This document shows, one piece after another, positions 1,707-60,242 of a stretch of 64,000 nt of DNA (the stretch's first letter is position 1; every line of letters starts with the position of its first letter). A model generated the notes under the pieces. The model was given only the letters and a program-made list of their open reading frames with translations, was not told where the DNA came from and searched no databases. This DNA is from Candidatus Poribacteria bacterium (GTDB lineage Bacteria; Poribacteria; WGA-4E; WGA-3G): contig CBDANF010000003.1 of NCBI GenBank assembly GCA_965197475.1, positions 2,925,971 through 2,989,970 of the forward strand, read 5' to 3'. A program made the translations under genes and the position numbers.

Positions 1707-1779
1707 GCATCGCAAGGAAATTTTCTTATAGAAACATAAGTAACAAGGATTCAAGCAAAAGAAAGAGAGGTAATTCATT

Positions 1780-2532: not shown

Positions 2533-2567
2533 GTGAAATTAAAACCACAGTGTAAGTAGGTAAACAA

Positions 2568-3686
2568 ATGGTGCAAAAACGGGATTATTACGAAATATTA
2601 GATGTAAGTCGAGATGCGGATGAAAACGAAATCAAGAAGGCTTACAGAAAGTTAGCCATTAAATATCATCCGGATAAAAATCCGGGTGATAAAGAAGCAG
2701 AAGAAAAGTTTAAAGAAGCAACCGAAGCTTATGATGTCCTGCGGACACCTGAGAAACGACAACGTTACAATCAATTTGGACATGCCGGACTTGAAGGTGC
2801 ATCCAGCGGGCACGGATTTGGGGTTAACTTTGACGATATTTTGAGCGAAGTCTTCGGAGACGTTTTAGGCGGATTCGGTAGGACACAACATAGACCAAAA
2901 CAGGGTCGCAGCCTACAATGTAACCTTGAAATCACTCTTGAAGATGCCTTTTACGGGAAAGGGGAAACAATCGAAATTCCTCGCATTGAATCCTGCCCAG
3001 AATGTAATGGAAGTGGAGCAGAAACAGGTTCAACGGCTGAAACCTGCCCACAGTGCTACGGACGAGGACAGATAACCCAATCCCAAGGCTTTTTCACGAT
3101 GTCCCGAACCTGTCCACGCTGCCGAGGTGAAGGTGAAATTATACAAAATCCATGCAGAAATTGTAATGGACAGGGGCGAATTAGAGTGAAACGCGAAATT
3201 AAACTGAAGATTGACAAAGGCGTAGATAACGGTTTTGAATATCGGTTGCGTGGAGAAGGGGAAGCGGGTACACTCGGCGGGCCTCCAGGTGATTTACTTG
3301 TCGTCGTTCAAATCAAACCACATCAGCGGTTTAGTCGTGAAGGTAGCAATCTGCTTACTTCTGCCAAAATATCGTTTGTCCAAGCAGCATTAGGCAGCAC
3401 CATCGAAATCAATAGTATTGACGGCACACAAAAATTGGATATTCCCGGCGGAACGCAGTATGGGGATCAGTTGCGTATCCCCGGTAAAGGAATGCCAGAG
3501 TACAGACGTTCTAGCTTCGGAGACCTCGTTGTACAGATCGGGATCGAAACACCGAGAAATCTCAATGAACAGCAACGCGAACTTTTAGAACACTTTGCTG
3601 AACTACAAGATAAATCAGCGGAATCTGGACACGGTGGATTTTGGGACAAGCTTTTTCGTCCTCACGATGATGAAGATAAATCGTAA
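2568..3686 (+). CDS. dnaJ: Molecular chaperone DnaJ
   Basis: J-domain with HPD (KYHPDKNP), a G/F region, and four CxxCxGxG zinc motifs (CPECNGSG, CPQCYGRG, CPRCRGEG, CRNCNGQG). Confidence 0.95.
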   Translation: MVQKRDYYEILDVSRDADENEIKKAYRKLAIKYHPDKNPGDKEAEEKFKEATEAYDVLRTPEKRQRYNQFGHAGLEGASSGHGFGVNFDDILSEVFGDVLGGFGRTQHRPKQGRSLQCNLEITLEDAFYGKGETIEIPRIESCPECNGSGAETGSTAETCPQCYGRGQITQSQGFFTMSRTCPRCRGEGEIIQNPCRNCNGQGRIRVKREIKLKIDKGVDNGFEYRLRGEGEAGTLGGPPGDLLVVVQIKPHQRFSREGSNLLTSAKISFVQAALGSTIEINSIDGTQKLDIPGGTQYGDQLRIPGKGMPEYRRSSFGDLVVQIGIETPRNLNEQQRELLEHFAELQDKSAESGHGGFWDKLFRPHDDEDKS

Positions 3687-19676: not shown

Positions 19677-20710
19677 TTCATGCTTAATCATCGGAAATAG
19701 CTCAAGGAAGATTATCAAATGGCGATACTAGAAGGTTTTAGAGTAAGGAACTATGGTGTTCTAAAAGATGTGACATTGGGTCGTCTATGGGACCAAGGGA
19801 AAGTACCGCTCACTCCTATAACTGCAATAATTGGAAAAAATGGAGTCGGTAAGACCACATTATTTGATGCGTTTGGTTTCCTTGCTCATGCTTTTAAGTT
19901 TGATGTCGAGACAGCTTGTGATGATCGCGGAGGTTTAAAAAAATACGTTCGCAAGGAGAGAAAGAGCCAATTGTTTTTGATGTGTACTACCGAGAACATA
20001 AGAATGTTCAACCTATTACATACCAAGTAGCAATTGGAGATGACCAATTTGGTCGTCCTTATGTCCTACAAGAACGTCTCAGGCAAAGGCGAAAGGGACA
20101 GAAATACGGTGAACCGTATACTTTTTTAAGACTTGATAACGGTAGTGGGGTAGCGTGGAAAGGCAACCAAGAAGGCTATCAGAAAACTCCTTTTGAATCC
20201 ATAAAATCAATAATTATAAGTACTTCAAGTAGCAAAAAAAAAGAAAAAGTTAAAAAGATAGATATAAAAAAAGGTGACCTTATTGACGATAACGAGAACT
20301 CAAGTCAAGCCTCAAGTAACTTAGACCTCTTAGAATACATAGTCAATAAGGAAGCCGACGAGACTGAGATTATTAAATTGGAGGATCCGCGAAAACTTGG
20401 CATTGCCACTCTCGGTGCTTTGAAGCAGCATCCGCGAATTTCTGCTTTTCGTAGGTTCATTGAAGGATGGTTTCTTAGTTACTTCACTCCTGATGCAGCA
20501 CGTAACTTACAATTTGCCGGCCCGCAAGAACACCTCAATATACAAGGCGATAACCTCAGAAACGTTGCGCAATTTATGGAGCGCGAATACCCTCAACGTT
20601 TCCAAGTAATTCTAAAAAAAAATCGCAGATAAAATTCCGGGCATAGAAAAAATTGACACCAAGAAAACAGAAGACAATAGGTTACTACTCAGGTTCAACG
20701 AAAAAAGGTT

Positions 20711-21696
20711 GGCTCATGTAAAAAGTAAGTGCTATTTTTTCAAAGTTATGTTAGCGTGTTACCTATGGACTTTCCAATACAATCTCTCCTGGATGAAGAA
20801 AAAACTCAAGCGTGGGTGTTGGATCATTTCCACCTTCAAGGGCTGTGTTGCCCAAAATGCCAAGCGAGCGTGGCGGAGGCACGCAAGTTCCGTCCGACTG
20901 AAACAAGTGGTCTACAAGTGTATCGCTGCAAACACTGTGAGAGCATCTACAACCTCTATACCGGGACGGTCTTTGCTGGCACGCAGTTTCGTCCCTCACA
21001 GGTCGTTCTGCTTTTGCGCGGTGTCTGTCAAGGTGTTTCAAGTGCACAACTCGGGTGTGAACTGGGTCTAAGTCGTCAAACCGTTCTTTCTATAAGACGT
21101 AAACTCCAAACTTCGGCAGAGCAGATACAACCCGAAGCTGCTTTACCTGATGCTGAAGTCGAAACAGATGAGATGTTTCAAAACGCCGGTGAAAAAGGCG
21201 ATAAGCACGTTGATGCTTCGGATCCGCCGCGTCGGCGTGGCAATAAACGCAGGGAACATGGGACTTATGACAATGATCGTCCGCCTATTGTTGGGACGAA
21301 AGGTCGCGAAAGCGGTCTCCTGAGATTACGTGTTGTGCGGCACACCGATTCTGCGACGCTTTCAACACACGTTCATCAGTGGACGTTGCCGACTTCAACG
21401 GTGTATACGGATGGTTGGCGTGGCTATAACCGTATTCAGCGCGCCCGTGAGATTGTTCTCCATAAGGATGGCGAGTGGGCAAGAGACGCAGACGGTGATG
21501 GTCTTTACGAGATCCATACAAGGACGATTGAAGGTGCCTGGACGACGCTGCGAAACTTCCTTCGTCCCTTTCGTGGCGTTCATAAAAAGTTCCTCGCCGG
21601 TTACGTCGCAATCTGTGAGTTCGTCATGAATCTAAAAGCTGTCAGTGTTGATTTTATAGCAAAACTCGTCAAAAGCACTTACTCTTGACATGAGCG
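20711..21696 (+). mobile_element. IS1595-family insertion sequence (986 bp) with 8-bp TSD AAAAGGTT
   Basis: Terminal inverted repeats GGCTCATGTAAAAAGTAAGTGCT and AGCACTTACTCTTGACATGAGCG match at 19 of 23 positions. Direct repeats AAAAGGTT lie at 20703-20710 and 21697-21704. By eye it is more GC-rich than the flanks. Confidence 0.85.
20765..21688 (+). CDS. IS1595-family transposase (zinc-ribbon + DDE)
   Basis: N-terminal CCPKC...CKHC zinc ribbon, then ETDEMF, YTDGWRGY and HTRTIEGAW motifs typical of IS1595 DDE transposases. Confidence 0.85.
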   Translation: MDFPIQSLLDEEKTQAWVLDHFHLQGLCCPKCQASVAEARKFRPTETSGLQVYRCKHCESIYNLYTGTVFAGTQFRPSQVVLLLRGVCQGVSSAQLGCELGLSRQTVLSIRRKLQTSAEQIQPEAALPDAEVETDEMFQNAGEKGDKHVDASDPPRRRGNKRREHGTYDNDRPPIVGTKGRESGLLRLRVVRHTDSATLSTHVHQWTLPTSTVYTDGWRGYNRIQRAREIVLHKDGEWARDADGDGLYEIHTRTIEGAWTTLRNFLRPFRGVHKKFLAGYVAICEFVMNLKAVSVDFIAKLVKSTYS

Positions 21697-22096
21697 AAAA
21701 GGTTTTCAAGATCCCTTCCAAGTTGAGCAAATGTCCGATGGAACACTCAAACTGTTTGCATATCTTCTGATGCTTGAAAATCCTACGCCACCGCCATTTC
21801 TTTGTATTGAAGAACCGGAAAACTACTTATATCACAAACTTTTGGAGATTCTCGCCACTGAATTCCGAGAACATGCAACAGGACTCAAAGGCGGTTCACA
21901 GGTTTTTGTTACGACGCATCAACCATACTTTGTCAATGCATTAGACCCGAAAGAGGTCTGGATCCTCGAAAAAAAAGAAGATGGGTTTTCCAAAATCCGT
22001 CGGGCAAGCGAAGATCCGCTTGTGAATAACCTGGTTGAAGAAGGGTTACCTTTGGGCGGGCTCTGGTATAGCGACTATCTTGACCCGAGGTAATTA

Positions 22097-22738
22097 ATGC
22101 ACTTTGAGATACTTATTGAAGACTTGTCAGGCAAGAAAGCACTTCAGATTTTGATTCCAAAAATCGTCGGTGCGCGACATACATTCAGTATCTATCCCTA
22201 TAAAGGAATTGGACACCTTCCAATAAAATCTCAAAATCCGACAACTGCGAATACTGGTCATTTGCTTGACGATCTACCAAAGCAGCTCCGTGCTTATGGA
22301 AAAAGTTATGCCAATGATCCTACCAAAGTTGTAATTGTCGTTTGCGACTTGGATAAAAGGTGTTTGAAAACATTTCGAAAAGAACTTTTTTCTGTCCTTA
22401 ATGCGTGTAACCTCAAACCAGAGACTCGGTTTTGTATTGCTATAGAAGAAGGTGAAGCCTGGCTGCTTGGGAATATCCCCGCGATCAAGAAAGCTTTCCT
22501 AAAAGCCATTGATAATGTTCTGAATAGTTATCAAAATGACTCTATTTGCGGAACGTGGGAACTTCTGGCTGATGCTATATACGCAGGAGGTGCAAAATCG
22601 CTGCAAAAGAAAACTTGGCGTGCAAGAGGCAAGGTAAAATCAGTATGGGCACAAAAAATAACTCCATATATGAATGTAGACAAAAACGCGTCTCCCAGTT
22701 TCTGTTATTTTCGAGATAAGATTCGAGAATTGATCTGA
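22097..22738 (+). CDS. DUF4276-like (Toprim-like) partner of the AAA15 ATPase
   Basis: 213 aa, starting 3 nt after the ATPase stop. N-terminal ILIEDLSGK (acidic E) and VVCDLD (DxD) fit a Toprim-like core. The family was recognised from memory, not searched. Confidence 0.65.
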   Translation: MHFEILIEDLSGKKALQILIPKIVGARHTFSIYPYKGIGHLPIKSQNPTTANTGHLLDDLPKQLRAYGKSYANDPTKVVIVVCDLDKRCLKTFRKELFSVLNACNLKPETRFCIAIEEGEAWLLGNIPAIKKAFLKAIDNVLNSYQNDSICGTWELLADAIYAGGAKSLQKKTWRARGKVKSVWAQKITPYMNVDKNASPSFCYFRDKIRELI

Positions 22739-23868: not shown

Positions 23869-23946
23869 ACTATCTGTATTGCATTAGTGTTAAGTCCGTG
23901 CTTCAGAATTGGTAAAACCTCCTATATAGGAAAGGAGTCTCATTTG

Positions 23947-26900
23947 ATGAAAAAACATATTTTTCGTTTTGCCATATTTACGTTAATCTGTCTATTCTTT
24001 TGTATGCTATCTGTTGAGTTTGTTTATGCTGGGATTGAAGCTTCTATTATACTTGATATAGACCTTAACGAAAATGGTCTCATGCGTGATATTGCGGCGA
24101 CAGCTACGCGTTTTTATGTCTTGTTTGCAGGCAGGCAACCGGAAATAGGAGGAACGTCCAATAGTGGATCGTCTTATATACGGAAAGTCTACGTTTTTGA
24201 CCATGAAGGAACACGTAAACCAGACGAGGAGTTTGAAATAGATACAGAACTGACACCATACAGCATTGCAGTAACAAATAAATTTATCTATATTTCATAC
24301 TGGGATAGTTCCGGTATTGATGCCTATGCGTTTGATGGTACGCGTTTACATGATGAGGGCTTACGTTATGCCTCTGCAGGTCAAAAAAGTAGTATAGCAG
24401 CAACAGAGACGCACATATATGTTTCAGATGTCTCTTATTTAGATGAAGTTGATATTTACAAGTTTAAAGATACACAAGGCGATCTAAACGCAAGGAACGT
24501 TTCCTGGGAGAAAGAATTTAAACTTACCACAAATGAGAGTCTTAGAGCTTTCATCGCCGCAACAGATACCCGTGTCTATATCCAAAATCCTAACGATTCT
24601 ACAATCTATGTCTACGATACCCGGGACGGTGGTAGACGCGCACGTGAAGATTTCGTACACTGCTTATGGACTGGGCTAAGGAAAGAATCTATTTACGTCC
24701 CCTCACGCTATTTATCAGGCATTACAACAACACCATTAGGTGGAAAATTGTATATGTTAATTTCCCGATCAAGGGATGATGGAATAGAGGGACGCCAACT
24801 TAAGGTCTATAGGTATTCTATTCCGGAAGAAAATGCTGCACGTCCTGAGGTCTTTTTGCCTGCAAAACCGCCTCGCAGAGCAAGTTATTATTTCTATTTG
24901 CCGCCTTCTGGTTCCGGGATAGCTGCGACTGATACAACCGTCTATATAGGAGCTGATGGTTCACGTTATTTTGGTCGTGCTGCTACAATACATGCCGAAA
25001 CCTATTCCGATGGGGTACCGGGCAGTTTATTCGCAGATGCCGGCAAACTGAGAGGTAATATATCCGTAACCTATCCTCATCTAGGTTCTTCCGGTATGAC
25101 AGTTGACTATAACAATATCTATCTGCTTATTCGTCGGGCATCTGATGTACTTACTCAAGAACACAACTATGCCGTTCGACACTGTTTACTTAATTCAGAT
25201 GGAACTATTCATGGTGGTAAGACGACATTAAGAGATCTTCAACTACCACTTGCAATGGAAAATTTTAAGAATGGAATAGGGCTAGCTATTGACTCAGAAG
25301 GAATTCTATACGTGATGGCTGCTGGTGAAAATTACAAAGGACCTCCGCTAATCTATCGATATAAACCTTCATTGGATTCTCCACAACATAGTCAAGCTTT
25401 GCCTGGTAACCCTATCTTGTTACATCCTGACCATAAGGCTCCATGCGGTATAACGATTGTAAAAAACCGCGCTTATGTTCTGGATAGGGCGTTTATAACT
25501 GATGAAGGCACCCCTCGATTGTACGCAAAGGTTTTTGTCTACGATTTGGATGCCCACGATGTATTTGAGTACTTACCTGAGGAGAGTTTTTTAGTAAATG
25601 CCCGAATAGGAAATCAGACAATCATACCGTATGATTCAGGTATTGCTGTAAATGGAGACACATTTTTCATCTCAATGAGAGCAGAGTGGCCTTCCAATTA
25701 TAAACATGTTCTTGTCTACGGTCCTCTTGCAGCACCGAGTTGGGGGCCCATACGCGCAGATACAATTCAGCGTAGGCAACCCTATGGTGGGGACATTAGA
25801 AGAATGTCAATAGTGGCTACAAATGGTAGTGACTACTACAAATACCAGGCAATCGAAGGTATTCCATGGATTCTTTCACTGGATTTTGACTTTGTATTTG
25901 GCAATCCTGATCCTTCCATTACCTTTAAAACAGGTTATAAAAAACCAGAATGGTTGACCTTAAAGGATGGTGTTCTATCAGGTACCCCTTCATCAGCAGG
26001 TAAGTTAACAATTGAACTCACTGCCACCAACGAACAAGGAAGTACGGATGAAAGTATCACCTTAAACGTTGGTCCGGGGGTTGTGGCACCGAGTTGGCAT
26101 GATTTCTCAGTGCCAGAGATAAGGATACACGATGCTTGGTCATTAACCTTAACTGACTTGGTTACTGGTAATCCGACACCGGAGATATATTTTACACAAG
26201 GATACACACCACCTGACTGGTTAAAGCTAAGAGAAGGCGTGTTATCAGGGACACCGCCAAAGGCGGGTACATATTCTATCCAAGTTACCGCTGCCAGTGC
26301 TCTCAGACGCCCTGGCTATGTAAAGTGGGCGGATATTGTGATATATTTGGTTGTCAAAGGTCCAACATCTCCTAATTGGGCACTTGATTCCATGAACGAT
26401 ACTGCACAAGGTATCGCCGCTACGGACAACCGGATCTATGTGACAGACCTTATTGATGACAAAATCTATGTTTACGGACACGATGGAGAGCGATATGTTG
26501 CTCAGGATATAGACCTCAAGACACTCACAGAAAACCCAATCGGTATCACTGCTACGGTGACACATATCTATATTGTTGATAACAGCGAGGATATCGTCTC
26601 AATTTTAGATGTTACAGAAACAGGTTCTGTCGGCAATTTCAAGCTTGACCCCGATAATAGAGGTCCAACCGGTATTGCAGCGACAGCAAGACGACTTTAT
26701 GTTGTTGACCACGAGGATGATAAGGTCTATACCTACGCACACGACGGTACACGGCACCCTACTGAGGATGTTAACCTGCACAAACATAGTGAACCCACCG
26801 GTATTACAGCGACAGCGACACGACTTTATGTTGTTGACGGTGATGATGACAAAATCTATCCCTATGAATATGATGGCAAAATGAAGAACAGTGAAATTGT

Positions 26901-28737
26901 TGAACTTGTTACAGAAAACAGAAGTCCAACTGGTGTTACTGCAACACCAGCGCATCTGTTTGTCGCAGATATTATTGACCAGAAAGTCTATTCATATCCG
27001 ATCCCTGGTGTTACCGAGGTTGTTGTAACTGTAGGCGCGCCGAGTTGGAAGCCCGTGTCAATTCCCGAAGCAGTGAAAGGTTCCCATTGGACGCTCTCCT
27101 TAGCAGATTTCGTAAAAGGGGACCCAACGCCACAGATCTACTTTACAGACGGTTATACGTCATCTAACTGGCTTACGTTGCAAAATGGTGTGCTTTCAGG
27201 CACCCCTACGATGGCTAACACTGAATATATCAAAGTTACCGCAACAAATAGTAAGGGAAGCGCAGACATAACAGTACCGCTTTCTGTGTCGCATTCAGAA
27301 TATACATCCTGGGACCTCAACCCCGAAGAAATTTATGTAAATACCATTGCCAGCACAGAAGAGTTTGTCTATGTGTTTTATGGGACCCAGAATAATATAC
27401 CTCACATAAGTGCTTACACTCATGATGGAATTCGCCGTCCGGATAAGGATATAAAACTTGGAACGGAACATAGAAAAGACTCACACAGCATTAACACCCA
27501 CATCACCGCCTCTGAAACACATCTTTTTATGGTGGAGACATATAACGATTCCGATGAATCGAATCCAACTGGTGGAAGAAAAGTCTATGTGTTTGACATT
27601 ACAGGAACAGGCACTAAACGGCATTTTTTTCTAAGTAGGGAGGTAGGTATGTACACAGCGGAGATTGCTGCCACTACAACGCGCTTTTATGCAGTCAATT
27701 GGTCTGAAAGGAAATTCCATGTTTACGGACACGATGGAACACCTTACCCAAATGAGGATTTTACACTCAAGCCGCACGACACTGAAGGTACATTTTTTTT
27801 GGACGTAGCGACAACTGAAACGCGTATCTACGTTTTGTTAGCAAAAGTGAATGGTTATGTTCGTGGTAAAGTTTTTGTATATGGGCATGATGGCACACCT
27901 TATCCTGACGAAAACTTCAACGTCGGTGAAGTAAAAACTGTAGATATTACAGCAACATCAACGCATCTGATGGCATATTCCGGTCCGTATCTTAGAGGCA
28001 TAAATACCGGCTCTATTTTTTACTTCCCACTTCCTGAGGCGGAAGGAAACACCGAAACAGCTGTTCATATCCAAGATACAACGCCCGCTTGGGATGTCAA
28101 TCAGGATGGAAAGGTTGATATCCAAGACCTAATTAAGGTCGCACAGTATATTGATGAAACAGAACTTTCTAATCCACAAGCAGACGTAAATGGAGATGGA
28201 ACAATTGATGTTCAAGACCTACTCATTGTTTCACAACATTTAGGAGAATCAGCTGAGGCAGCATCACCTATAAAAACAACTGCTTTGCGATTTCCTGCCC
28301 TTGTAAAAAACGTTGCAGATGGTGATGTCACAACGGAACTAATTCAAACATGGATAGACCTTGCGCGGATTTCGGACGATGGTTCGCCTGTTTTTCAGCG
28401 CGGTATTGCAAACTTAGAACGTCTATTAGCTGAGATGCTACCAGATAAGACAGAACTCCTCGCAAACTATCCGAATCCTTTTAACCCAGAAACGTGGATA
28501 CCTTACCATCTTGCTAAGGAAGCTGAGGTGCAAATTACTATTTACGATATAAACGGTGCTGTCGTGAGACAATTAGACCTGGGATTGAAACTCGCCGATA
28601 ATTATACGGACCGTTCCCGAGCTGCTTTTTGGGATGGACGCAATGCTGATGGTGAGAAGGTTGCAAGCGGAATTTACTTCTATCAACTCCGTGCAGGCGG
28701 CTATGATCACACCCGCAGAATGCTTATTGTTAAATAG
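23947..28737 (+). CDS. Giant secreted beta-propeller / Ig-like / dockerin-like protein with T9SS-like C-terminal domain
   Basis: RBS AAAGGAG and signal peptide MKKHIFRFAIFTLICLFFCML. Many GIAAT-x-RIYV-D..DDKIYVY.HDG blades and three Ig-like GY..P(D/E)WL.L..GVLSGTP segments. Two DVN(Q/G)DG..D.QDL repeats. C-terminal LLANYPNPFNPETWIPY...GIYFYQL. Confidence 0.85.
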   Translation: MKKHIFRFAIFTLICLFFCMLSVEFVYAGIEASIILDIDLNENGLMRDIAATATRFYVLFAGRQPEIGGTSNSGSSYIRKVYVFDHEGTRKPDEEFEIDTELTPYSIAVTNKFIYISYWDSSGIDAYAFDGTRLHDEGLRYASAGQKSSIAATETHIYVSDVSYLDEVDIYKFKDTQGDLNARNVSWEKEFKLTTNESLRAFIAATDTRVYIQNPNDSTIYVYDTRDGGRRAREDFVHCLWTGLRKESIYVPSRYLSGITTTPLGGKLYMLISRSRDDGIEGRQLKVYRYSIPEENAARPEVFLPAKPPRRASYYFYLPPSGSGIAATDTTVYIGADGSRYFGRAATIHAETYSDGVPGSLFADAGKLRGNISVTYPHLGSSGMTVDYNNIYLLIRRASDVLTQEHNYAVRHCLLNSDGTIHGGKTTLRDLQLPLAMENFKNGIGLAIDSEGILYVMAAGENYKGPPLIYRYKPSLDSPQHSQALPGNPILLHPDHKAPCGITIVKNRAYVLDRAFITDEGTPRLYAKVFVYDLDAHDVFEYLPEESFLVNARIGNQTIIPYDSGIAVNGDTFFISMRAEWPSNYKHVLVYGPLAAPSWGPIRADTIQRRQPYGGDIRRMSIVATNGSDYYKYQAIEGIPWILSLDFDFVFGNPDPSITFKTGYKKPEWLTLKDGVLSGTPSSAGKLTIELTATNEQGSTDESITLNVGPGVVAPSWHDFSVPEIRIHDAWSLTLTDLVTGNPTPEIYFTQGYTPPDWLKLREGVLSGTPPKAGTYSIQVTAASALRRPGYVKWADIVIYLVVKGPTSPNWALDSMNDTAQGIAATDNRIYVTDLIDDKIYVYGHDGERYVAQDIDLKTLTENPIGITATVTHIYIVDNSEDIVSILDVTETGSVGNFKLDPDNRGPTGIAATARRLYVVDHEDDKVYTYAHDGTRHPTEDVNLHKHSEPTGITATATRLYVVDGDDDKIYPYEYDGKMKNSEIVELVTENRSPTGVTATPAHLFVADIIDQKVYSYPIPGVTEVVVTVGAPSWKPVSIPEAVKGSHWTLSLADFVKGDPTPQIYFTDGYTSSNWLTLQNGVLSGTPTMANTEYIKVTATNSKGSADITVPLSVSHSEYTSWDLNPEEIYVNTIASTEEFVYVFYGTQNNIPHISAYTHDGIRRPDKDIKLGTEHRKDSHSINTHITASETHLFMVETYNDSDESNPTGGRKVYVFDITGTGTKRHFFLSREVGMYTAEIAATTTRFYAVNWSERKFHVYGHDGTPYPNEDFTLKPHDTEGTFFLDVATTETRIYVLLAKVNGYVRGKVFVYGHDGTPYPDENFNVGEVKTVDITATSTHLMAYSGPYLRGINTGSIFYFPLPEAEGNTETAVHIQDTTPAWDVNQDGKVDIQDLIKVAQYIDETELSNPQADVNGDGTIDVQDLLIVSQHLGESAEAASPIKTTALRFPALVKNVADGDVTTELIQTWIDLARISDDGSPVFQRGIANLERLLAEMLPDKTELLANYPNPFNPETWIPYHLAKEAEVQITIYDINGAVVRQLDLGLKLADNYTDRSRAAFWDGRNADGEKVASGIYFYQLRAGGYDHTRRMLIVK

Positions 28738-28964: not shown

Positions 28965-29849
28965 TCATTGGGCTTCTCCTTGGTGAGTGGCTTCATCGTT
29001 TGAGTCTGAATTGGCAAGGTCTGCATCTATGGCTTGGAGTTGGTGCTGCGGTATGAGGTCGAGATATTGAGAGATGACGCGTTTAGAAAGTCGTGTAATC
29101 TGTGAGATTTTATCAATATCTGCGGTTGCTTTCCGAACGACTTTGACGCTCTCATAATCGCGAATGTATCGGTCAACTGCCTCCTTAGAGTGTTTGGTCT
29201 TTGCGGCAATCCTGGGGGTGAGATGTCCTTGAAGATAGAGGGTTATGATCTCTTTCTTATGGGTAATAGCCCCCGATAAGTCATGGATATTGCCACGGGT
29301 GGGCAAGAGTTCTCCAGTGGTTTTTTGCCATTCATTAACATAATCACAGACAACGGCATCGCAGACATTGAGCAAAACTGCCAAGTCGAGTTGTGTCAAT
29401 AATGCCCCTTGGTCATAAGCTTGATGACACCAGCGGACCAAGCGATTGATCCGCAATTGCCGGGAGGTGAAACCGTTGCGAAAGGATTCAATATCCTCTG
29501 CGGCGAGGTAAGTCAGGATGACGGGTTTCATGCGGGTTTTGACGATGGACTTTCCTCTTTCTGGATGCTCTTCAATAGGGACAGCCATCCAAACGAGGTG
29601 TCCATAGCTCAGCAGCCGCTCCTCTGGGAGTGCGTCACCAGTGGCGAGTTTCTCCAAAGGAAGGGTAATCACGAAATAGTCCTCAACGGTCTTAAGAATA
29701 TCATCAACAATAGCTGTCGCCGTGACTTCGCCTTTGTCATAACCGTAGTCATTGAGAAAGCGATGGATCAGCAACTGTCGTAGGGATTTATCGTTGATGC
29801 GTCTGAACTTTTTCTCGTTGATTTGGGTGCGCGTCAAAGGTTTGCTCAT
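28965..29849 (-). CDS. DUF1670-like HTH protein (paralogue B)
   Basis: 294 aa. Its C-terminal half aligns with the upstream paralogue (QGALLTQLDLAVLL / QDALLSYEDLAVLL; TRGNIHDLSGAITHK / TRGAKHDMGPGLSHK). Family recognised from memory. Confidence 0.6.
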   Translation of the reverse strand: MSKPLTRTQINEKKFRRINDKSLRQLLIHRFLNDYGYDKGEVTATAIVDDILKTVEDYFVITLPLEKLATGDALPEERLLSYGHLVWMAVPIEEHPERGKSIVKTRMKPVILTYLAAEDIESFRNGFTSRQLRINRLVRWCHQAYDQGALLTQLDLAVLLNVCDAVVCDYVNEWQKTTGELLPTRGNIHDLSGAITHKKEIITLYLQGHLTPRIAAKTKHSKEAVDRYIRDYESVKVVRKATADIDKISQITRLSKRVISQYLDLIPQHQLQAIDADLANSDSNDEATHQGEAQ

Positions 29850-29852
29850 CAG

Positions 29853-30665
29853 AGTTCCTCCTTTTTTTTCTCCACGGGCTCTGGGTGAAGGAGTTGGGTC
29901 ATGCGATCGGTGTGTTGATATTCCTCGGACAGCGAGAGATACTCGCGGATCAGCCGGTCAGAGAGATGAGTGATGAGTGATGAGCCGTATCTGTGCGTTA
30001 GGAAAACCTTGATGATGGAGCGTGGCGACTTGTATTAAGTCCCTCAAGTAGCGGTAGACGGCCCGTTCGGAGTGGTTCGTCTTTTGCTCAATCTCGGTGA
30101 AGGTGTATGCTTTGAAGGACAACTCAAGAATCTGCGTCTTATGAGACAGTCCCGGGCCCATGTCGTGTTTCGCCCCGCGCGTCATCACGAAATAGCCGGA
30201 CTGCTTCAACGCTCGGATGTCGCGTTTGACGGTGGCAGGACTGGTAGTTAATAACACTGCCAAATCCTCATAACTCAGCAAGGCATCTTGGTCATAAGCT
30301 TCTTGGGTCAATCGGAGGATCCGATGCCGTCTGAGACCTGCGAGCCCATAAGTCGCTAAAACTTCAAGGTCGGCTTCAACATCGTTGAGTTTGAGTCGAC
30401 AGGAAACTTTTTTCGCTAAAGCGATGTGTTTGCCTGCGGGTTCCTCAGCGGCGACTGCCTCATAGCAGATTTGCCCTGAGGTAAGTTGCACATCGGCGTG
30501 CTGTTCAAAGTAGGTGGAAATCTGTTTATAGTAGGCTTCAGCAACGAGAGGCATTAGATTAAAGTCTGCTGAAATCTTCTGAATAATAGCGGCTCTGGCA
30601 TTCTTGGATTCCAGTCGATTGATACCGTAGGCGGTATCCTTCTTACGGTCCATATTGACCTCCAT
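29853..30665 (-). pseudogene. DUF1670-like HTH protein (paralogue A) with a frameshift from a 7-nt tandem duplication
   Basis: The ORF 29958-30665 stops inside GATGAGT GATGAGT GATGAG (29965-29984). Removing one 7-nt unit restores ...IRLITHLSDRLIREYLSLSEEYQ...EEL. That aligns with ISQITRLSKRVISQYLDL of paralogue B and ends in TGATG coupling with the next gene. Confidence 0.65.
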
Positions 30666-30812: not shown

Positions 30813-30912
30813 CTCACAAAGGATAAAACAGCGTTTAGACTCTGCTTTTGCCGAACAATACACCTGCAAGATTCCGTGGTCTGCCACAACGCCCTATCTG
30901 AATTAGTAAACG

Positions 30913-31242
30913 CTAACGAATTGCAGTTGGGACAATTTGAGCGATAAATTTCAAACTGTTTTCCAACTTTTCGATTGCCTCTGATTCGCGAGCTGTCCCA
31001 CTCTTGAGTTCAATCGAAACTCCCACAAGATTATTTTCAGTTGGAGAAATAAAAAAGAGAAGTCGGTCACACCTTTTTTCAGTTTTTTGGCGCAAATCAA
31101 ACTCATGTTCAAGATTTACAATCACCCGTTCGGATGGTATGTCATCCATGTCAACATTGCATCCTTCTCCACTGCATGCATCAACTAAACTACCTGTATT
31201 AAAACGTGCACGGAGTTCACCAAGAATTCTACTCTGATTCAC
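30913..31242 (-). CDS. Small (109 aa) PD-(D/E)xK-like protein, putative effector partner of the upstream ATPase
   Basis: CDRLLFF...(19 aa)...VSIELKSG gives a D...ExK pattern. Its start overlaps the ATPase stop by 14 nt. Confidence 0.35.
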   Translation of the reverse strand: MNQSRILGELRARFNTGSLVDACSGEGCNVDMDDIPSERVIVNLEHEFDLRQKTEKRCDRLLFFISPTENNLVGVSIELKSGTARESEAIEKLENSLKFIAQIVPTAIR

Positions 31243-32639
31243 GCTTAGTGTTGCCTTTCATTTCTTCAAGTCGATTTTGTAGACGTGCGGAACGGTTGTA
31301 AAGGTCCTCAGCGACATCCAAATATTCCATCGGTTCAACGCCGTCAATACGATTGTAAGGTATTTCTTCCACCTTTCCATTTTTCTGAAAATGCCAAATT
31401 CCAACTTGTTCTGTCTGAAGAGAAGTCGGCAGGTCGCTAACTTCCTGCCCTGCGTTCTCAAGTTCTCCTGCACGTATCAGATTCCCTATTTCCTGAAGTA
31501 ACCAATCGCTATGTGTTGTTATTATTATTTTCACGCCTGCCCGAACTAAACGTGCAAGAATGACTGCCATGCCTGCTTGGGCACCCGGGTGTAGGTGTGC
31601 CTCCGGTTCTTCAATGATCAGCGTATCACCTGGCTGTACAAGACTTCGGAGATATAGGACTAAGGGCGCAAGTTCAGATACCATTGAGGAAGATTGGCTG
31701 AGACGAAATTCTTCATTAGTGCCTTGTGGTAAATAACGAAAGTCCGGATACCCACTCGCTGAAGGTTTTAAGCGTATCTTTCCAGCAAGTACTTCAGTTT
31801 CCAAAGTTTCAGAATGTTGTTTCATCTCAGCATTCGGTTTTTTTGGTTCTTCGTAAAGGATAATTTTTTCCATAAAGTCTGCTATCACTCCTGACATAGT
31901 GGGAACCTCAGGAAAACGTTCGAAACCTACTCGGGTTGATCGCTTTACAAGCGAAGTTGCTATCACTCGATGACTTTGCATGATGCCGCTCCGGGCAGCA
32001 GGAAGGTAGTAACGGTTTCCTCCATTTTTGATGTTTCCCTTAAAACCATGTATTTTTTTTACTCCGCTTGTCAGTTCAACTCCCCAATCTCCGCTAAAAG
32101 TGAAATTAAAATTACCTTCACCTTTCCAGTCTGTGGAGATTGCCAATCCCTCAGGAATAAGAATCATAGTCTCGTTGAATGAACTATTAAGGATAACATC
32201 TGATTCAGATGTATTTAACTTGATACTCCAACCGTCTTGCTGTTTTTCATCAACCATCAGTGAAACAGTCATTTCATTTTTTTCTCCCGTTGTCAATCGT
32301 CTTAATTCCAAAATTGCATCAAAATCATAACAGTTTTTGAGTTCAGACTGTAGTTTGTCCCCAAAAACCTCTGCATCATCAATAATTGTCTTTAAGAGAT
32401 CTCGTAGTTCTGTTGGAAAATCTAACAATCTAAAGGCCCCTGTCACTGGTGTTTAGTTTTTTGAGCACATCCTGAACTTTTTGCTTTGCTGATGGACTCG
32501 CGTTTGTCAAAACAAAGTTCTGTAAAGCATGTAAAATACCTACAATCCCTTGGAGCCCAGATGGAAATAGAAGTTGGGGTTCTGTCATATCCGGAAATAC
32601 ACCGTACAAGGCGTACACCAGCGTAGAAAAATAAGTTTT

Positions 32640-33778
32640 CGGAATAAGTCGTTTTGGACTTGACAAAAGTTGGAAAAGTGCGCTAAACCCTTGTAAATAA
32701 AGGGTTTTCATAGTATAATATCAGTAAGAAAATAGGGGGTATCAACCCCCTATTTGAAACTCAAAAAAGCGAGTTGCTTTTCTGGTTCACACTTATCTGA
32801 TATTGTATCAGAAACTATCAGAAAAATGCAACTCCAAAAAACAGGAGTGTTTTCTGATGGATTTAATCAAGGTGATGAAGACGTTCTCAACGCAAGAGGA
32901 TTGCATCGAATATCTGGAGCGGCTCCGATGGAAAGAATCGCCAGAATGCCCGCATTGTCCAAGTCTAAACGTCCGAAGGCGGAACGAACACGAGGTTGGG
33001 CGTGTCGGACGCTGGAACTGCCACGATTGCCGTGCTACATTCAAGGTGACACACGGCACAATATTTCACGGCACGAAGATACCGCTCCAAAAGCGGTTTC
33101 TCGCTATCGCTCTCATGGCAAACGCAAAGAAAAGTTTGTCCTCCCATCAACTTGCGCGCGATTTAGGGATGAAACAGAAAGCTGCTTGGTGTCTAATGAT
33201 GGCTATACGCACAGAGATGGGAAAGGATAATGTCCTACTACAAGGGGTCATTGAAGCAGATGAAACCTATATCGGTGGTAAGCGTCGCAAAGACTATGAC
33301 CGGGAGGATGGTGAACCCCGTAAACGCGGACGCGGCACCGCTAAAGATGCCGTGCTGGGCGCAGTCGCACGTGGTGGACACGTCATCGCACAACTCGTAT
33401 CCAACGCCACTGGTGAGACGATCTCCGACTTCATCAACAGATTCGTCAATACCGAAGATTCTGAACTCATTACCGATCAGTATAGAAGCTACAACGAAAT
33501 CGGTAAGGAAATGAAACATGAGACACTTAACCGTAGTGAGAAATGGGAGGCTGGCGACATCCATACCAATACGATGGAAGGCTTTTGGTCTTTCGTCAAG
33601 AGGGCATGGTATGGACAACAACACCACTACTCAACAAGATACACGCCCCTGTATCTCGCAGAGGCAGGCTATAAATATAACTACCGAGAAACCAACATCT
33701 TTGAGAAGTTTCTCACCGAAAGTATAACGTGAGAAATCTGAAAAATAAAAACTTCCAAGTCCAAAACGACTTATTGCG
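32640..33778 (+). mobile_element. IS1595-family insertion sequence (1139 bp) with 8-bp TSD TAAGTTTT
   Basis: Terminal inverted repeats CGGAATAAGTCGTTTTGGACTTG and CAAGTCCAAAACGACTTATTGCG match at 22 of 23 positions. Direct repeats lie at 32632-32639 and 33779-33786. Confidence 0.9.
32857..33732 (+). CDS. IS1595-family transposase
   Basis: MDLIKVMKTFSTQEDCIEYLERLRWKESPECPHC zinc ribbon, then EADETYIGG, TDQYRSY and HTNTMEGFWS motifs. It is a close paralogue of the transposase at 61438-62319. Confidence 0.9.
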   Translation: MDLIKVMKTFSTQEDCIEYLERLRWKESPECPHCPSLNVRRRNEHEVGRVGRWNCHDCRATFKVTHGTIFHGTKIPLQKRFLAIALMANAKKSLSSHQLARDLGMKQKAAWCLMMAIRTEMGKDNVLLQGVIEADETYIGGKRRKDYDREDGEPRKRGRGTAKDAVLGAVARGGHVIAQLVSNATGETISDFINRFVNTEDSELITDQYRSYNEIGKEMKHETLNRSEKWEAGDIHTNTMEGFWSFVKRAWYGQQHHYSTRYTPLYLAEAGYKYNYRETNIFEKFLTESIT

Positions 33779-33949
33779 TAAGTTTTTCCTGTATTACTGG
33801 GACCAACAAATACCGTCAACGGGCGCAAATCGATATTGGCTTCCGCAATAGGTCCAAAATTCTCAACTGCAATTTCAACCTTCGGCTGCTCTTGTGTGTC
33901 TTTGACTTCGCTCATGGTCATCTCCTCAAAAATGATTTGTTTATGTAGG

Positions 33950-35320
33950 TTAGAAAAACGTTAAATACGGCTTACCGATAATCTCCCGCCACAACAGGAC
34001 CGCAAGTTCGCGGGCGTGATAATCTCCCCACATAGATGCCTCACCGCACGGAATCTTCCTACCTTCCGGCACATAATCCCATCCATTCGGACGGTGATAC
34101 ACGGAATGCAACAACAAGCCTTGATGTGAATCAGAAGTAGAGAGATACGGTTCAGCGAAGAGAGTCTTTGCTACCGTCAAACCTGCTTGGTAATAGGAGT
34201 TGCCTGCCTCAGCTTCACCATGCTTTTTGAGATAGTTGCCGAGTCGAATTAATCCTTGGGCAGCAATCGCAGCTGCGGAGCTATCCACCGGTTCAAAATC
34301 GTTGAACGGATCGGCGGGTGCTGCCAAATAATCTCCGAGCTCAGCTAAACCGGGAGCACCTGTATCCCAATATGGAATGCCATCTTGTGCGGTGTTCTCA
34401 ATGTAGAAATCGGCAGTGGCTTCCGCTGCTTTGCGCATGTGTGTGGTTACTTCTACATACCCACCGTAAGGTTCAAGGTCATCTTCAGTTAGCGTGTCAA
34501 AAAATTCAAGTTGTTCAGCGTAGCCTGCTATAATCCATGCCAATCCACGTGTCCACGTCGAAAACGGGGAATAACCTTGTTGTGTGCTGGGACAACGGTA
34601 ATTACCATCATTTGTATTGAAGATAGATTCATGCACAACACGTCCTTGCACGTCAAAAGCATCACGTCCTTCACCGTAGTAGACGTTATAGGCTGCTGTC
34701 GTCTGGGAATGTTGGAGCAGGCGTTCCAATAGACTGATAGCGACATCGCCTTCACCCATCAGTACTGCACCGAGTGTATGTCCGATTGCTAAAACGCGTA
34801 GTGAACGAATAGTGTCAGAAAAGAGCGAATGCGGACCGTTGAAAGAGGTGATATAGCCCGTTCCGTCTTTAATTCGTGTCCAGCGACTTGCTTGAACGGC
34901 AGCGGAGGCTTTCAGTGCAAGTTCATAGAAATGCATCTCGCTATCGTTCCACGGAATGACACCTTCACGCATTAGTTGTCTTAGGTTTCCGTAAGTGGAG
35001 ACGTTGTTGAAACCGTGGTCATGCACACCGATGTGTGTGACATGGGGTGCCATCTTTTCAATCGTGTTCTGCCTACCAATTTCAAGAAACTGCTCATCAC
35101 CTGTGGCATCAAATTGAAGGATAGCAGAGCCAAATTGGAATCCTTGTGTCCACTCAGTCCAACCTCGCGTGGTATAAGTACCAGCGACAGTAAAAACAGG
35201 GGTGCCTTTTTCAGGAGACCACGTATCTTCTATAGCCAATATTTTTTGACCTGAGCATTCAAAAAGTCGTTCTATCTGACGTTTCAGGTCATTAAGTTGC
35301 AATGAATCGTTTATCTGCAT
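33950..35320 (-). CDS. Glycoside hydrolase family 88/105-like (unsaturated glucuronyl hydrolase-like)
   Basis: 456 aa. The TEWTQGF and VHDHGF motifs resemble the WT.GFW and HDLGF motifs of GH88. Confidence 0.5.
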   Translation of the reverse strand: MQINDSLQLNDLKRQIERLFECSGQKILAIEDTWSPEKGTPVFTVAGTYTTRGWTEWTQGFQFGSAILQFDATGDEQFLEIGRQNTIEKMAPHVTHIGVHDHGFNNVSTYGNLRQLMREGVIPWNDSEMHFYELALKASAAVQASRWTRIKDGTGYITSFNGPHSLFSDTIRSLRVLAIGHTLGAVLMGEGDVAISLLERLLQHSQTTAAYNVYYGEGRDAFDVQGRVVHESIFNTNDGNYRCPSTQQGYSPFSTWTRGLAWIIAGYAEQLEFFDTLTEDDLEPYGGYVEVTTHMRKAAEATADFYIENTAQDGIPYWDTGAPGLAELGDYLAAPADPFNDFEPVDSSAAAIAAQGLIRLGNYLKKHGEAEAGNSYYQAGLTVAKTLFAEPYLSTSDSHQGLLLHSVYHRPNGWDYVPEGRKIPCGEASMWGDYHARELAVLLWREIIGKPYLTFF

Positions 35321-60037: not shown

Positions 60038-60242
60038 AATATTCTCCTTTCAAATATCAAAAGTAGAGCAATCGGACTTACAAAGCCCTCCTATAAGAAA
60101 AGGCGAATGTAGATAGCATTAGTCTGTATTAAACGCAATGAGTAGTTTTGGACTTGCAACAAGCCCCTGAATTTTTAATTTTTAACACCCTTTGCACCTT
60201 TTTCCTTGACAAACCCCTCTCAAATAACGTATCCTATTAAAA

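What the first reader, a model, noticed from the sequence alone, without database searches (positions are those of the whole stretch)
30913..33921. Second ATPase-based two-gene cassette: ABC/AAA21 ATPase + ~110-aa PD-ExK-like partner
When reconstructed, the ATPase is ~545 aa. It has Walker A GPSNTGKT, a long insert region, Walker B LIIEEPEAHLHP and H-loop TTHSD. Its stop overlaps by 14 nt the start of a 109-aa protein carrying a D...ELK pattern (CDRLLFF...VSIELKSG), which implies translational coupling.

The logic (ABC ATPase sensor plus small nuclease) parallels Septu, PARIS and OLD-type systems. The tiny PD-ExK-like partner does not match any named system I can recall. This is my best candidate for an undescribed defence pair in the window, although this copy is dead.
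Basis: partly seen in the sequence, partly recalled or inferred. Interest (0 to 1): 0.75.

Follow-up and report, generated by a model that had tools for sequence, protein, structure and literature searches.

The report
Dead ABC-ATPase plus small-nuclease defence pair
This is the broken remnant of a two-gene ATPase-plus-small-nuclease module, a distant relative of the known anti-phage systems PD-T4-4, PDC-M47 and WonAB, so it is not a new kind of system, although its intact relatives are unusually stable residents of Poribacteria genomes.

Summary
On the minus strand there is an ABC-type (AAA_15/AAA_21) ATPase whose stop overlaps, by 14 nt, the start of a small ORF with a conserved D...ExK motif.

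Both genes are dead:
- The ATPase carries an intact 1,139-bp IS1595-family element just after Walker A, plus a 1-nt frameshift.
- The small gene has a nonsense codon and a 96-bp in-frame deletion. The "109-aa" protein is therefore a truncated form of a ~163-aa protein.

Intact pairs occur in 76 of 78 related loci, and all 74 reference-genome loci are Candidatus Poribacteria.

The pair is not undescribed. The ATPase matches PD-T4-4_A (E ~1e-38; hhalign 99.4% against a bona fide E. coli PD-T4-4_A) and PDC-M47A. The small-protein family matches PDC-M47B weakly but repeatedly. It aligns its CD...ExK core with a PDC-M47B-like protein at 94.5% probability and with PD-T4-4_B at 40%.

The class (ABC ATPase plus variant restriction-endonuclease fold) has been tested experimentally: PD-T4-4 protects E. 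coli, and WonAB aborts infection by blocking translation.

Distinctive features here are four conserved cysteines in the nuclease and four paralogous copies held at fixed chromosomal positions across Poribacteria.

Verdict: a pseudogenised, divergent new member of a known kind, of modest interest.

The parts
33779..33921 (-). ATPase N-terminal fragment (start codon to just after Walker A, GPSNTGKT|Y)
   Evidence: ORF list and translation. Aligns with the N-termini of intact homologues.
32640..33778 (+). IS1595-family insertion sequence, 1,139 bp, with 23-bp terminal inverted repeats (22/23 match). The 8-bp target-site duplications AAAACTTA lie at 32632..32639 and 33779..33786.
   Evidence: Inverted repeat I1. 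Boundaries and identical flanking 8-mers were checked by script, and removing the element restores the reading frame.
32803..33732 (+). Transposase ORF of the IS (309 aa), apparently intact
   Evidence: Pfam DDE_Tnp_IS1595 7.6e-35 (profile positions 2-153 of 153) and Zn_ribbon_IS1595 1.7e-09.
32441..32639 (-). ATPase middle fragment (start of insert 1), in the frame of the N-terminal piece
   Evidence: Frame 0 of the IS-excised sequence. Aligns with homologues.
32437..32440 (-). GGGG run, the most likely site of the 1-nt insertion that frameshifts the ATPase
   Evidence: The frame change must fall between the frame-1 TAA and the frame-0 TAG. Deleting one G gives an ungapped alignment with intact homologues. 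I could not check whether this is a sequencing error.
31229..32446 (-). ATPase C-terminal part: rest of insert, LPAARSG (Q-loop position), LSQSSS signature, Walker B LIIEEPEAHLHP, H-loop TTHSD and the C-terminal extension
   Evidence: ORF. Pfam AAA_15 5.5e-22 and AAA_21 1.8e-12. PADLOC PD-T4-4_A 9.5e-38. hhalign against E. coli PD-T4-4_A 99.45%.
30913..31242 (-). Truncated small nuclease gene (109 codons plus a premature TAG at 30915..30913), carrying C23, C28, E45, E47, C58-D59 and E78-x-K80
   Evidence: ORF. Homologues are 163-166 aa. PADLOC PDC-M47B E=0.0023.
30835..30912 (-). Remnant 3' end of the small gene, in frame after the premature stop (RLLIQIGRCGRPRNLAGVLFG...). The 96-bp deletion junction lies between 30911 and 30910.
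   Evidence: Translation. DNA alignment with the syntenic intact locus L001.

Best explanation
The region holds the decayed remains of a two-gene operon: an OLD-like ABC ATPase without a nuclease domain (~490-515 aa), followed by a translationally coupled small nuclease (~163 aa) with a variant restriction-endonuclease (PD-(D/E)xK) fold. It is a divergent branch of the class that includes PD-T4-4, the PADLOC candidate PDC-M47 and WonAB. This branch was found mostly in Poribacteria.

Shown here:
- homology of both genes to that class
- strict gene pairing
- conserved ABC motifs and a conserved D59/E78/K80 triad
- four inactivating lesions in the window copy

Inferred by analogy with WonAB and PD-T4-4:
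- In intact copies the ATPase dimerises around ATP and holds the nuclease on its C-terminal extension.
- A phage cue triggers ATP-dependent activation of the nuclease.
- The nuclease more likely cuts an RNA of the translation apparatus than DNA, which arrests the infected cell (abortive infection).

In this window nothing functions. An intact IS1595-family element sits right after Walker A, a frameshift follows, and the nuclease gene has a nonsense codon plus a 96-bp deletion.
For: Anatomy and lesions.

ATPase:
- Pfam AAA_15/AAA_21.
- The top PADLOC matches are always PD-T4-4_A (1e-31 to 1e-39) and then PDC-M47A, for the window copy and for five homologues.
- hhalign of the ATPase profile against a bona fide E. 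coli PD-T4-4_A (itself 2.9e-260 to the PADLOC model) gives 99.45% probability and E 4.6e-22. The aligned region includes the post-H-loop C-terminal extension.

Small protein:
- D59, E78 and K80 are conserved.
- The AlphaFold model has pLDDT 93 and pTM 0.90. Its order is strand, helix (E45/E47), strand (D59), strand (E78-x-K80), helix, strand.
- The top Foldseek hits are FokI, BamHI, MspJI, HamA, EndoMS, SgrAI and Mrr-like proteins.
- PDC-M47B hits occur in 34/70 and 37/81 members, with a best E-value of 4.7e-10.
- hhalign gives 94.5% against an Enterococcus PDC-M47B-like protein, 78% against a Vibrio P2-like phage partner and 40% against E. coli PD-T4-4_B. All three align the same CD...(E/D)xK core.

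Pairing: 76/78 loci plus distant relatives.

Function of the class:
- PD-T4-4 was selected for T4 defence (PMC9519451).
- WonAB needs both genes, the ATPase motifs and the nuclease lysine. It aborts infection without degrading DNA and blocks translation (PMC12137116).
- PD-T4-4 forms higher-order complexes and cut no DNA in vitro (bioRxiv 10.1101/2025.07.10.664194).
Against: - The match of the small protein to named B components is weak. For the window copy only PDC-M47B is listed, at E 0.0023, and PD-T4-4_B is not listed at E<=1. hhalign against PD-T4-4_B gives only 40%.
- No Foldseek match is significant (best E 0.14 against PDB and 2.4e-3 against the viral library).
- Most Poribacteria copies sit between housekeeping genes at four conserved chromosomal positions rather than in variable defence islands. 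That is atypical for defence systems.
- No member of this branch has been tested.
Confidence: 0.8

Rival explanations
1. A genuinely new, unnamed defence system: an ABC ATPase sensor with a novel tiny PD-ExK effector unrelated to described systems.
For: - Pfam and NCBIfam have no family for the small protein.
- The window copy reaches PDC-M47B only at E 0.0023.
- The family has four conserved cysteines that are absent from E. coli PD-T4-4_B.
- Automated tools might not call it.
Against: - The ATPase is clearly homologous to PD-T4-4_A and PDC-M47A, including the C-terminal extension.
- Homologues retrieved with the family profile (E<=1e-12) reach PDC-M47B at up to 4.7e-10.
- hhalign gives 94.5% against a PDC-M47B-like protein.
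- The architecture (ATPase then small variant REase, with overlapping genes) is exactly that of PD-T4-4, WonAB and 'OLD-ABC ATPase + novel REase'.
Confidence: 0.08
2. A domesticated or housekeeping nucleic-acid-processing module of Poribacteria (for example RNA or DNA quality control) rather than phage defence. On this reading the module is kept as four vertically inherited paralogues.
For: - 59 of the 83 loci scored for position (window included) fall into four conserved chromosomal positions flanked by housekeeping-type genes (guanylate kinase, GFO/IDH/MocA oxidoreductase, alanine racemase-like, FG-GAP protein).
- Small-protein identity is 71-77% within a position and 50-57% between positions.
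- Several genomes carry two or more copies.
Against: - The closest characterised relatives are all defence systems.
- Some relatives do sit beside defence-type genes: AAA_15+DUF4276 in L080, HEPN_Swt1-DUF499 in L081, an N6_N4 methyltransferase in L003.
- Related pairs occur on plasmids and in a P2-like phage between the repressor and integrase genes.
- About 10-12 of 78 loci, plus the window copy, are truncated or disrupted, which shows the module is dispensable.
Confidence: 0.1
3. A toxin-antitoxin-like addiction pair in which the ATPase merely neutralises a toxic nuclease.
For: - The genes are tightly coupled, with a small, potentially toxic nuclease downstream.
- Pfam AAA_21 is annotated 'putative AbiEii toxin, Type IV TA system'.
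Against: - In WonAB, nuclease toxicity requires the ATPase and its ATPase activity, which rules out simple sequestration (PMC12137116).
- In this window both partners are inactivated, not just one.
Confidence: 0.02

Closest known systems
PD-T4-4 (Vassallo et al. 2022, E. coli; PADLOC PD-T4-4_A/B)
   Same: - Two genes in the order ATPase then small protein, abutting or overlapping.
- The ATPase is the best PADLOC match (about 1e-38) and aligns with a bona fide PD-T4-4_A at 99.45% probability, including the C-terminal extension.
- The small protein shares the C-D...(E/D)-x-K-S core and the following Q-L helix.
   Different: - The small protein is ~163 aa rather than ~209 aa. It is only marginally similar (hhalign 40%; PD-T4-4_B HMM hit in 4/70 members).
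- It has four conserved cysteines (C23, C28, C58, C151), of which E. coli PD-T4-4_B keeps only the one beside the catalytic Asp.
- The host phylum is different (Poribacteria), and the copies are chromosomal at conserved positions rather than on an ICE or plasmid.
PDC-M47 (PADLOC-DB v2 candidate system, untested; no paper found)
   Same: - The ATPase matches PDC-M47A at about 1e-33.
- The small-protein family hits PDC-M47B models in about half of its members, with a best E-value of 4.7e-10 among the profile-retrieved homologues of alignment A5.
- A PDC-M47B-like Enterococcus plasmid protein aligns at 94.5% with an identical CDY...IELKS motif.
   Different: - Matches are confined to the ~40-80 residue catalytic core and are weak for the Poribacteria clade itself (E 1e-2 to 1e-5).
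- PDC-M47B models are 158-202 positions long. I could not assess whether they carry the N-terminal cysteine motif.
WonAB of the V. cholerae WASA-1 prophage, and the 'OLD-ABC ATPase + novel REase' operon (PMC12137116, citing Krishnan et al. 2020)
   Same: - An ABC ATPase with Walker A, a Q-loop-position Arg, signature motif, Walker B and H-loop, and no fused nuclease.
- A small variant PD-(D/E)xK partner with an essential Lys.
- The paper itself groups WonAB with PD-T4-4 as one larger family of ABC-ATPase sensors paired with nucleases.
   Different: The relation is inferred through PD-T4-4. WonAB is prophage-borne.
OLD / Gabija GajA / PARIS AriAB / Septu PtuAB
   Same: Same ATPase clade: weaker PADLOC hits to AriA (1e-23), Old and GajA (1e-11 to 1e-12), and a PDB profile hit to an OLD-family protein, 6p74, at 1.6e-7. 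The logic is also the same, with an ABC ATPase as sensor and a nuclease as effector.
   Different: Neither protein has a Toprim domain (the OLD, GajA and AriB effector) or an HNH domain (PtuB). The effector here is a separate small PD-(D/E)xK-type protein.

Membership tests
PD-T4-4 | A component: ABC ATPase matching PD-T4-4_A | tested here: met
   PADLOC PD-T4-4_A 9.5e-38 for the repaired window protein and 1e-31 to 1e-39 for five homologues. hhalign against a bona fide E. coli PD-T4-4_A gives 99.45%, E 4.6e-22. Coverage is mainly the C-terminal half for the window copy, and positions 3-387 of 460 for L001.
PD-T4-4 | B component: matches PD-T4-4_B | tested here: inconclusive
   The window copy has no listed hit at E<=1. 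4/70 family members hit at E<=0.01, best 7.8e-5. hhalign against E. coli PD-T4-4_B gives 40% probability and E 2.9e-4 over 49 columns that include the catalytic motif.
PD-T4-4 | Gene order A then B, adjacent on the same strand | tested here: met
   14-nt overlap in the window. 76/78 loci have the ATPase directly upstream. The order is the same in E. coli, Klebsiella, Enterococcus and Vibrio-phage examples.
PD-T4-4 | Confers phage resistance | not testable with these tools
   Needs an experiment. The window copy is a pseudogene in any case.
PDC-M47 (PADLOC candidate) | A component matches PDC-M47A | tested here: met
   E 9.7e-33 for the window copy and 1e-24 to 1e-33 for homologues.
PDC-M47 (PADLOC candidate) | B component matches PDC-M47B | tested here: inconclusive
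   Window copy E 0.0023. 34/70 close members hit at E<=0.01 and 37/81 wider members at E<=0.001, best 4.7e-10. hhalign gives 94.5% against a PDC-M47B-like Enterococcus protein. PADLOC's own cut-offs were not available, so I do not know whether PADLOC would formally call the system.
[quoted passage not shown] | ABC-ATPase motifs (Walker A, Q-loop position, signature, Walker B, H-loop) with no fused nuclease domain | tested here: met
   GPSNTGKT, LPAARSG, LSQSSS, LIIEEPEAHLHP and TTHSD are invariant or nearly so in 22 ATPases. Pfam finds only AAA_15, AAA_21 and AAA_23.
[quoted passage not shown] | Direct homology to WonA/WonB | not tested
   The sequences (AWB73975.1, AWB73976.1) could not be fetched. 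The relation is inferred through PD-T4-4, which the WonAB paper calls similar.
PD-(D/E)xK nuclease superfamily | Conserved acidic residue plus (D/E)xK on consecutive strands of an alpha-beta-beta-beta-alpha-beta core | tested here: met
   D59 is present in 80/81, E78 in 81/81 and K80 in 78/81 sequences. In the model (pLDDT 93), D59 lies at the start of strand 60-65 and E78-x-K80 at the end of strand 72-80, preceded by helix 44-50 and followed by helix 86-103.
PD-(D/E)xK nuclease superfamily | Significant structural match to a known member | tested here: inconclusive
   The top Foldseek hits are restriction-type nucleases (FokI, BamHI, MspJI, HamA, EndoMS, SgrAI; viral Mrr-like and PD-(D/E)XK proteins). 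All have E>=0.14 against PDB or >=2.4e-3 against the viral library, with TM 0.2-0.44.
OLD / Gabija / PARIS | Toprim nuclease domain (fused, or as AriB/DUF4435) | tested here: not met
   Pfam and PADLOC find no Toprim or DUF4435 in either protein.
Septu | HNH nuclease PtuB partner | tested here: not met
   No HNH match. No PtuA model appears among the best 25 PADLOC matches listed for the ATPase.
IS1595 family (the disrupting element) | DDE_Tnp_IS1595 transposase with an N-terminal zinc ribbon, terminal inverted repeats and an 8-bp target duplication | tested here: met
   Pfam 7.6e-35 and 1.7e-09. 23-bp inverted repeats and identical 8-bp flanks AAAACTTA. That 8 bp is typical for this family is from my own knowledge of ISfinder.

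The most novel reading that the evidence does not exclude
The intact relatives form a distinct, uncharacterised subtype of the PD-T4-4/WonAB class.
- The nuclease carries a four-cysteine (possibly Zn or Fe-S) cluster that ties the N-terminus, the catalytic strand and the C-terminus together.
- The system has been kept as at least four vertically inherited paralogues at fixed chromosomal positions throughout the sponge-symbiont phylum Poribacteria.

That would be an unusual case of a 'core-genome' abortive-infection module, or a domesticated derivative with a non-defence role, and current annotation tools may miss it.
Probability: 0.3. Interest if true: 0.5.

Novelty: new member of a known kind. 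Interest (0 to 1): 0.3.

Why it matters
For this window it matters little. The cassette is a pseudogene of a system class that has been named and partly characterised.

Three wider points have modest value:
- Two-gene ABC-ATPase plus variant-REase systems extend, in divergent form, into an uncultivated sponge-symbiont phylum. There both components lack Pfam/NCBIfam names, and the nuclease is barely detectable with current defence-system HMMs.
- Their conserved chromosomal positions and paralogy contrast with the usual island-hopping behaviour of defence genes.
- Both ATPase-based cassettes in this window are split by IS1595-type elements, which illustrates defence-gene turnover by IS insertion.

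The conserved cysteine set suggests a testable structural metal site in this nuclease family.

Tried and rejected
- Foldseek of the high-confidence small-protein model against PDB and BFVD gave no significant hit, only a consistent enrichment of restriction-type nucleases among weak hits.
- Sequence and profile searches of the PDB found nothing for the small protein (best E 0.78) and only remote OLD and PtuA hits for the ATPase.
- Pfam and NCBIfam have no family for the small protein, even across 81 members.
- The search for related loci with the diverse alignment A5 failed for lack of a conserved stretch. The run with A3 used Poribacteria-derived patterns, so its all-Poribacteria result cannot show that the family is absent elsewhere.
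- Literature: no paper mentions 'PDC-M47'. Krishnan et al. 2020 is not held, so its 'novel REase' description is cited only through PMC12137116.
- The promoter and terminator scan of the region was no better than shuffled sequence.
- Four apparent ATPase disruptions in my first intactness count (L008, L009, L011, L019) were only stops two codons earlier, so I corrected them to intact.
- I considered and rejected the 456-aa upstream gene as a third component. It accompanies only the position-A paralogue.
Full report
**1. What is in the sequence**

The feature lies on the minus strand.
- An ORF starting at 33921 encodes MTMSEVKDTQ...VFVGPSNTGKTY and then loses similarity to homologues.
- A 26-nt imperfect inverted repeat (32637-32662 / 33756-33781) brackets an ORF on the plus strand at 32803..33732. 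That ORF is a complete IS1595-family transposase: Pfam DDE_Tnp_IS1595 7.6e-35, Zn_ribbon_IS1595 1.7e-09.
- A script placed the element at 32640..33778 (1,139 bp), flanked by identical 8-bp direct repeats AAAACTTA. Removing the element plus one repeat copy restores an uninterrupted frame across the junction (...GPSNTGKTY|FSTLVYALYG...).
- About 65 codons further on, the frame shifts by one nucleotide. The shift lies between a frame-1 TAA and a frame-0 TAG, in a stretch that contains a GGGG run (32437..32440). Deleting one G gives a 514-aa protein that aligns without a gap at that point to intact homologues.
- The C-terminal ORF (31229..32446) carries LPAARSG, LSQSSS, LIIEEPEAHLHP and TTHSD.
- The ATPase stop overlaps the GTG start (31242) of a 109-codon ORF by 14 nt.

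**2. The small gene is also broken**

- The 119 database homologues of the 109-aa product include 70 of at least 155 aa, typically 163-166 aa, and cover the query end to end.
- In the window, the reading frame continues after the TAG at 30915..30913 with RLLIQIGRCGRPRNLAGVLFG, which is the conserved C-terminal end of the family.
- A DNA alignment with the syntenic intact locus L001 shows a TCA-to-TAG change and, two bases later, a 96-bp in-frame deletion.

The cassette therefore carries four lesions: the IS, the frameshift, the nonsense codon and the deletion. The perfect target duplication and intact transposase suggest the IS insertion is recent.

**3. The pair is real and conserved**

- Neighbourhood look-ups for four homologues of the small protein all showed an AAA_15/AAA_21 ATPase of 480-500 aa directly upstream, overlapping the small gene or separated from it by a short gap.
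- A scan of one genome per GTDB species returned 74 loci, all from Candidatus Poribacteria. The search patterns were derived from Poribacteria sequences, so this says nothing about absence elsewhere.
- tblastn found the ATPase immediately upstream in 76 of 78 loci.
- By a simple ORF test, about 63 of 78 loci have both genes intact. Three are cut by contig ends, and roughly 10-12 show truncation or decay.
- An exhaustive profile search of 1.84 billion cluster representatives found 731 representatives at E<=1e-3 and 215 at E<=1e-10; the full-length ones among the 150 best listed are about 150-170 aa.
- Three relatives at only 24-28% identity again had a 510-519-aa AAA_15/AAA_21 ATPase overlapping their start.

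**4. What the proteins are**

*ATPase*
- Pfam gives AAA_15 (5.5e-22) and AAA_21.
- In PADLOC the best models are PD-T4-4_A (9.5e-38) and PDC-M47A (9.7e-33). NsnB, AriA, Old and GajA follow well behind. The five homologous ATPases scanned likewise have PD-T4-4_A as the best match and PDC-M47A second or third.
- tblastn against plasmids recovered a bona fide PD-T4-4 on E. coli plasmid CP057079 (A 2.9e-260 and B 6.1e-108 to the PADLOC models).
- A 22-sequence ATPase profile aligns with that PD-T4-4_A at 99.45% probability (E 4.6e-22) over 151 columns, from the signature motif through Walker B and the H-loop into the C-terminal extension.
- No solved structure is close. The best PDB profile hit is an OLD-family protein, 6p74, at 1.6e-7.

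*Small protein*
- No Pfam or NCBIfam family matches.
- Across 81 diverse members, E78 is invariant. D59 is present in 80/81, K80 in 78/81, Q/K92 in 81/81, C28 in 81/81, C58 in 78/81, C151 in 79/81 and C23 in 61/81.
- An AlphaFold2 model of the 163-aa homologue P0003 (78% identical to the window fragment) is confident, with pLDDT 93.1 and pTM 0.90.
- The model has the order strand 39-43, helix 44-50, strand 60-65, strand 72-80, helix 86-103, then further strands. That order matches the restriction-endonuclease core, with D59 and E78-x-K80 on adjacent strands.
- Foldseek found nothing significant, but the top PDB hits are FokI, BamHI, MspJI, Hachiman HamA, EndoMS, EcoO109I and SgrAI. The top viral hits include Mrr-like and PD-(D/E)XK proteins.
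- PADLOC PDC-M47B models are hit by 34/70 close members at E<=0.01 and by 37/81 wider members at E<=0.001 (best 4.7e-10). PD-T4-4_B models are hit by a few members, and Cas4c by one.
- hhalign of the family profile gives:
  - 94.5% (E 7.4e-8) against the partner of an Enterococcus plasmid ATPase, which is itself PDC-M47B-like and carries the motif CDYIII...FLIELKSS
  - 78% against the partner of a Vibrio P2-like phage ATPase
  - 40% (E 2.9e-4) against E. coli PD-T4-4_B, motif CDLVLI...IFDQKSK
- In every case the same C-D...(E/D)-x-K-S core is aligned.
- The bona fide PD-T4-4_B proteins themselves hit PDC-M47B at about 1e-5, so these B families are interrelated.

**5. Comparison with what is known**

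- PD-T4-4 was recovered in a functional selection for T4 resistance in E. coli (PMC9519451).
- WonAB, from the V. cholerae WASA-1 prophage, is an ABC ATPase plus a variant PD-(D/E)xK protein.
  - Both genes, the ATPase motifs and the nuclease lysine are required.
  - Defence is abortive, DNA stays intact and translation stops. The authors propose an rRNA or tRNA target.
  - The authors relate WonAB to the 'OLD-ABC ATPase + novel REase' operon of Krishnan et al. 2020 and to PD-T4-4 (PMC12137116).
- Purified PD-T4-4 forms higher-order complexes but cut none of 11 DNA substrates (bioRxiv 10.1101/2025.07.10.664194).

The window's cassette shares the architecture, the ATPase lineage and the catalytic core of the nuclease with this class. 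It lacks the Toprim domain of OLD, Gabija and PARIS and the HNH domain of Septu. I therefore file it as a divergent new member of a known kind, not a new system.

Membership of PD-T4-4 or PDC-M47 in the narrow sense is unproven for the B component.

**6. How it most likely works**

Shown: homology, pairing, conserved motifs and inactivation.

Inferred by analogy:
- ATP-driven dimerisation of the ATPase
- docking of the nuclease on the ATPase's C-terminal extension
- activation by a phage cue
- cleavage of an RNA of the translation machinery, leading to abortive infection

The four conserved cysteines suggest a structural metal site that E. coli PD-T4-4_B lacks. I could not check this on coordinates.

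**7. Context and evolution**

- The window is syntenic with Poribacteria locus L001/L005. The shared gene order is ABC-transporter permease, HisF, an EF-Tu-like GTPase, a cytidylyltransferase, a 456-aa protein, the ATPase, the nuclease, then a GFO/IDH/MocA oxidoreductase.
- Compared with those loci, the window has about 7 kb extra between the nuclease and the oxidoreductase. The extra DNA encodes two DUF1670 proteins and a 1,616-aa protein.
- Of the 83 loci scored for position (window included), 59 fall into four conserved chromosomal positions: A 23, B 16, C 13, D 7. One further locus carries flank markers of both A and C, and 23 lie at other positions.
- Small-protein identity is 71-77% within a position and 50-57% between positions.
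- Several genomes carry two positions.

This pattern points to old paralogues inherited vertically, which is unusual for defence genes and keeps a non-defence (domesticated) role open as a minority rival. Against that rival:
- Some relatives lie beside defence-type genes.
- Related pairs sit on plasmids and in a P2-like phage between the repressor and integrase genes.
- Decay is recurrent.

**8. Verdict**

- Observation: largely confirmed, with corrections to the ATPase length, the nature of the interruption and the true size of the small protein.
- Interpretation: right about the architecture and the death of this copy, wrong about it being unnamed.
- Novelty: new member of a known kind.
- Interest: modest (0.3). 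It rests mainly on the Poribacteria-wide conserved paralogues and the cysteine-bearing nuclease variant, not on the dead copy in the window.

Noticed in passing
window 19719..22738 (+): The other ATPase cassette in the window consists of AAA-type ATPase fragments (19719..20030, 19982..20632, 21731..22093) followed by a DUF4276 protein (22097..22738). It is also split, with a second IS1595-type transposase ORF (20729..21688, Pfam 2e-12) lying between the ATPase pieces. Both ATPase-based cassettes are therefore IS-disrupted. A distant relative's locus (L080) also has an ATPase+DUF4276 pair directly upstream of its ATPase+nuclease pair.
   Followed up: partly
window 28965..30665 (-): Two tandem DUF1670 genes (294 and 235 aa; Pfam 7e-61 and 8.4e-55, with HTH motifs) lie directly downstream of the dead nuclease gene. 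Together with the 1,616-aa ORF at 23887..28737, they form about 7 kb that is absent from the syntenic loci L001/L005. I do not know their function or whether they are mobile.
   Followed up: no
window 60137..60156 and 62515..62534: A second pair of inverted copies of the IS terminal repeat (2 mismatches each) brackets about 2.4 kb. This suggests a related, larger IS1595-type element or composite near the window end.
   Followed up: no
L086 (Vibrio phage 1.202.O, NC_048066.1) 1526..3557: A P2-like (Peduoviridae) vibriophage carries an AAA ATPase plus a 209-aa partner between its repressor and integrase genes. The partner is related to E. coli PD-T4-4_B (BLASTP 4e-10) and to the Poribacteria family (hhalign 78%).
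   Followed up: partly
L085 (K. pneumoniae MGH 78578 pKPN6, NC_009652.1) 1622..3680: A 4.3-kb ColE1-type plasmid has four annotated genes: a PD-T4-4 pair (B 3.6e-93 to the PADLOC model), Rop and an HTH protein. Related 4.3-kb and 7.9-kb Klebsiella plasmids recur in the hit list.
   Followed up: no
L004 6483..8716, and position-B loci generally: At the guanylate-kinase position, the pair is often followed by a conserved 608-aa protein of unknown family. In L004 a PIN-domain gene comes next. This could be another conflict module or just conserved synteny.
   Followed up: no
window 33950..35320 (-): A 456-aa ORF ends 28 nt upstream of the ATPase start. It has only a weak GH88-like Pfam hit (1.2e-4) and is conserved upstream of the pair in position-A loci only. 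It is probably co-transcribed with the pair but is not part of the system.
   Followed up: partly
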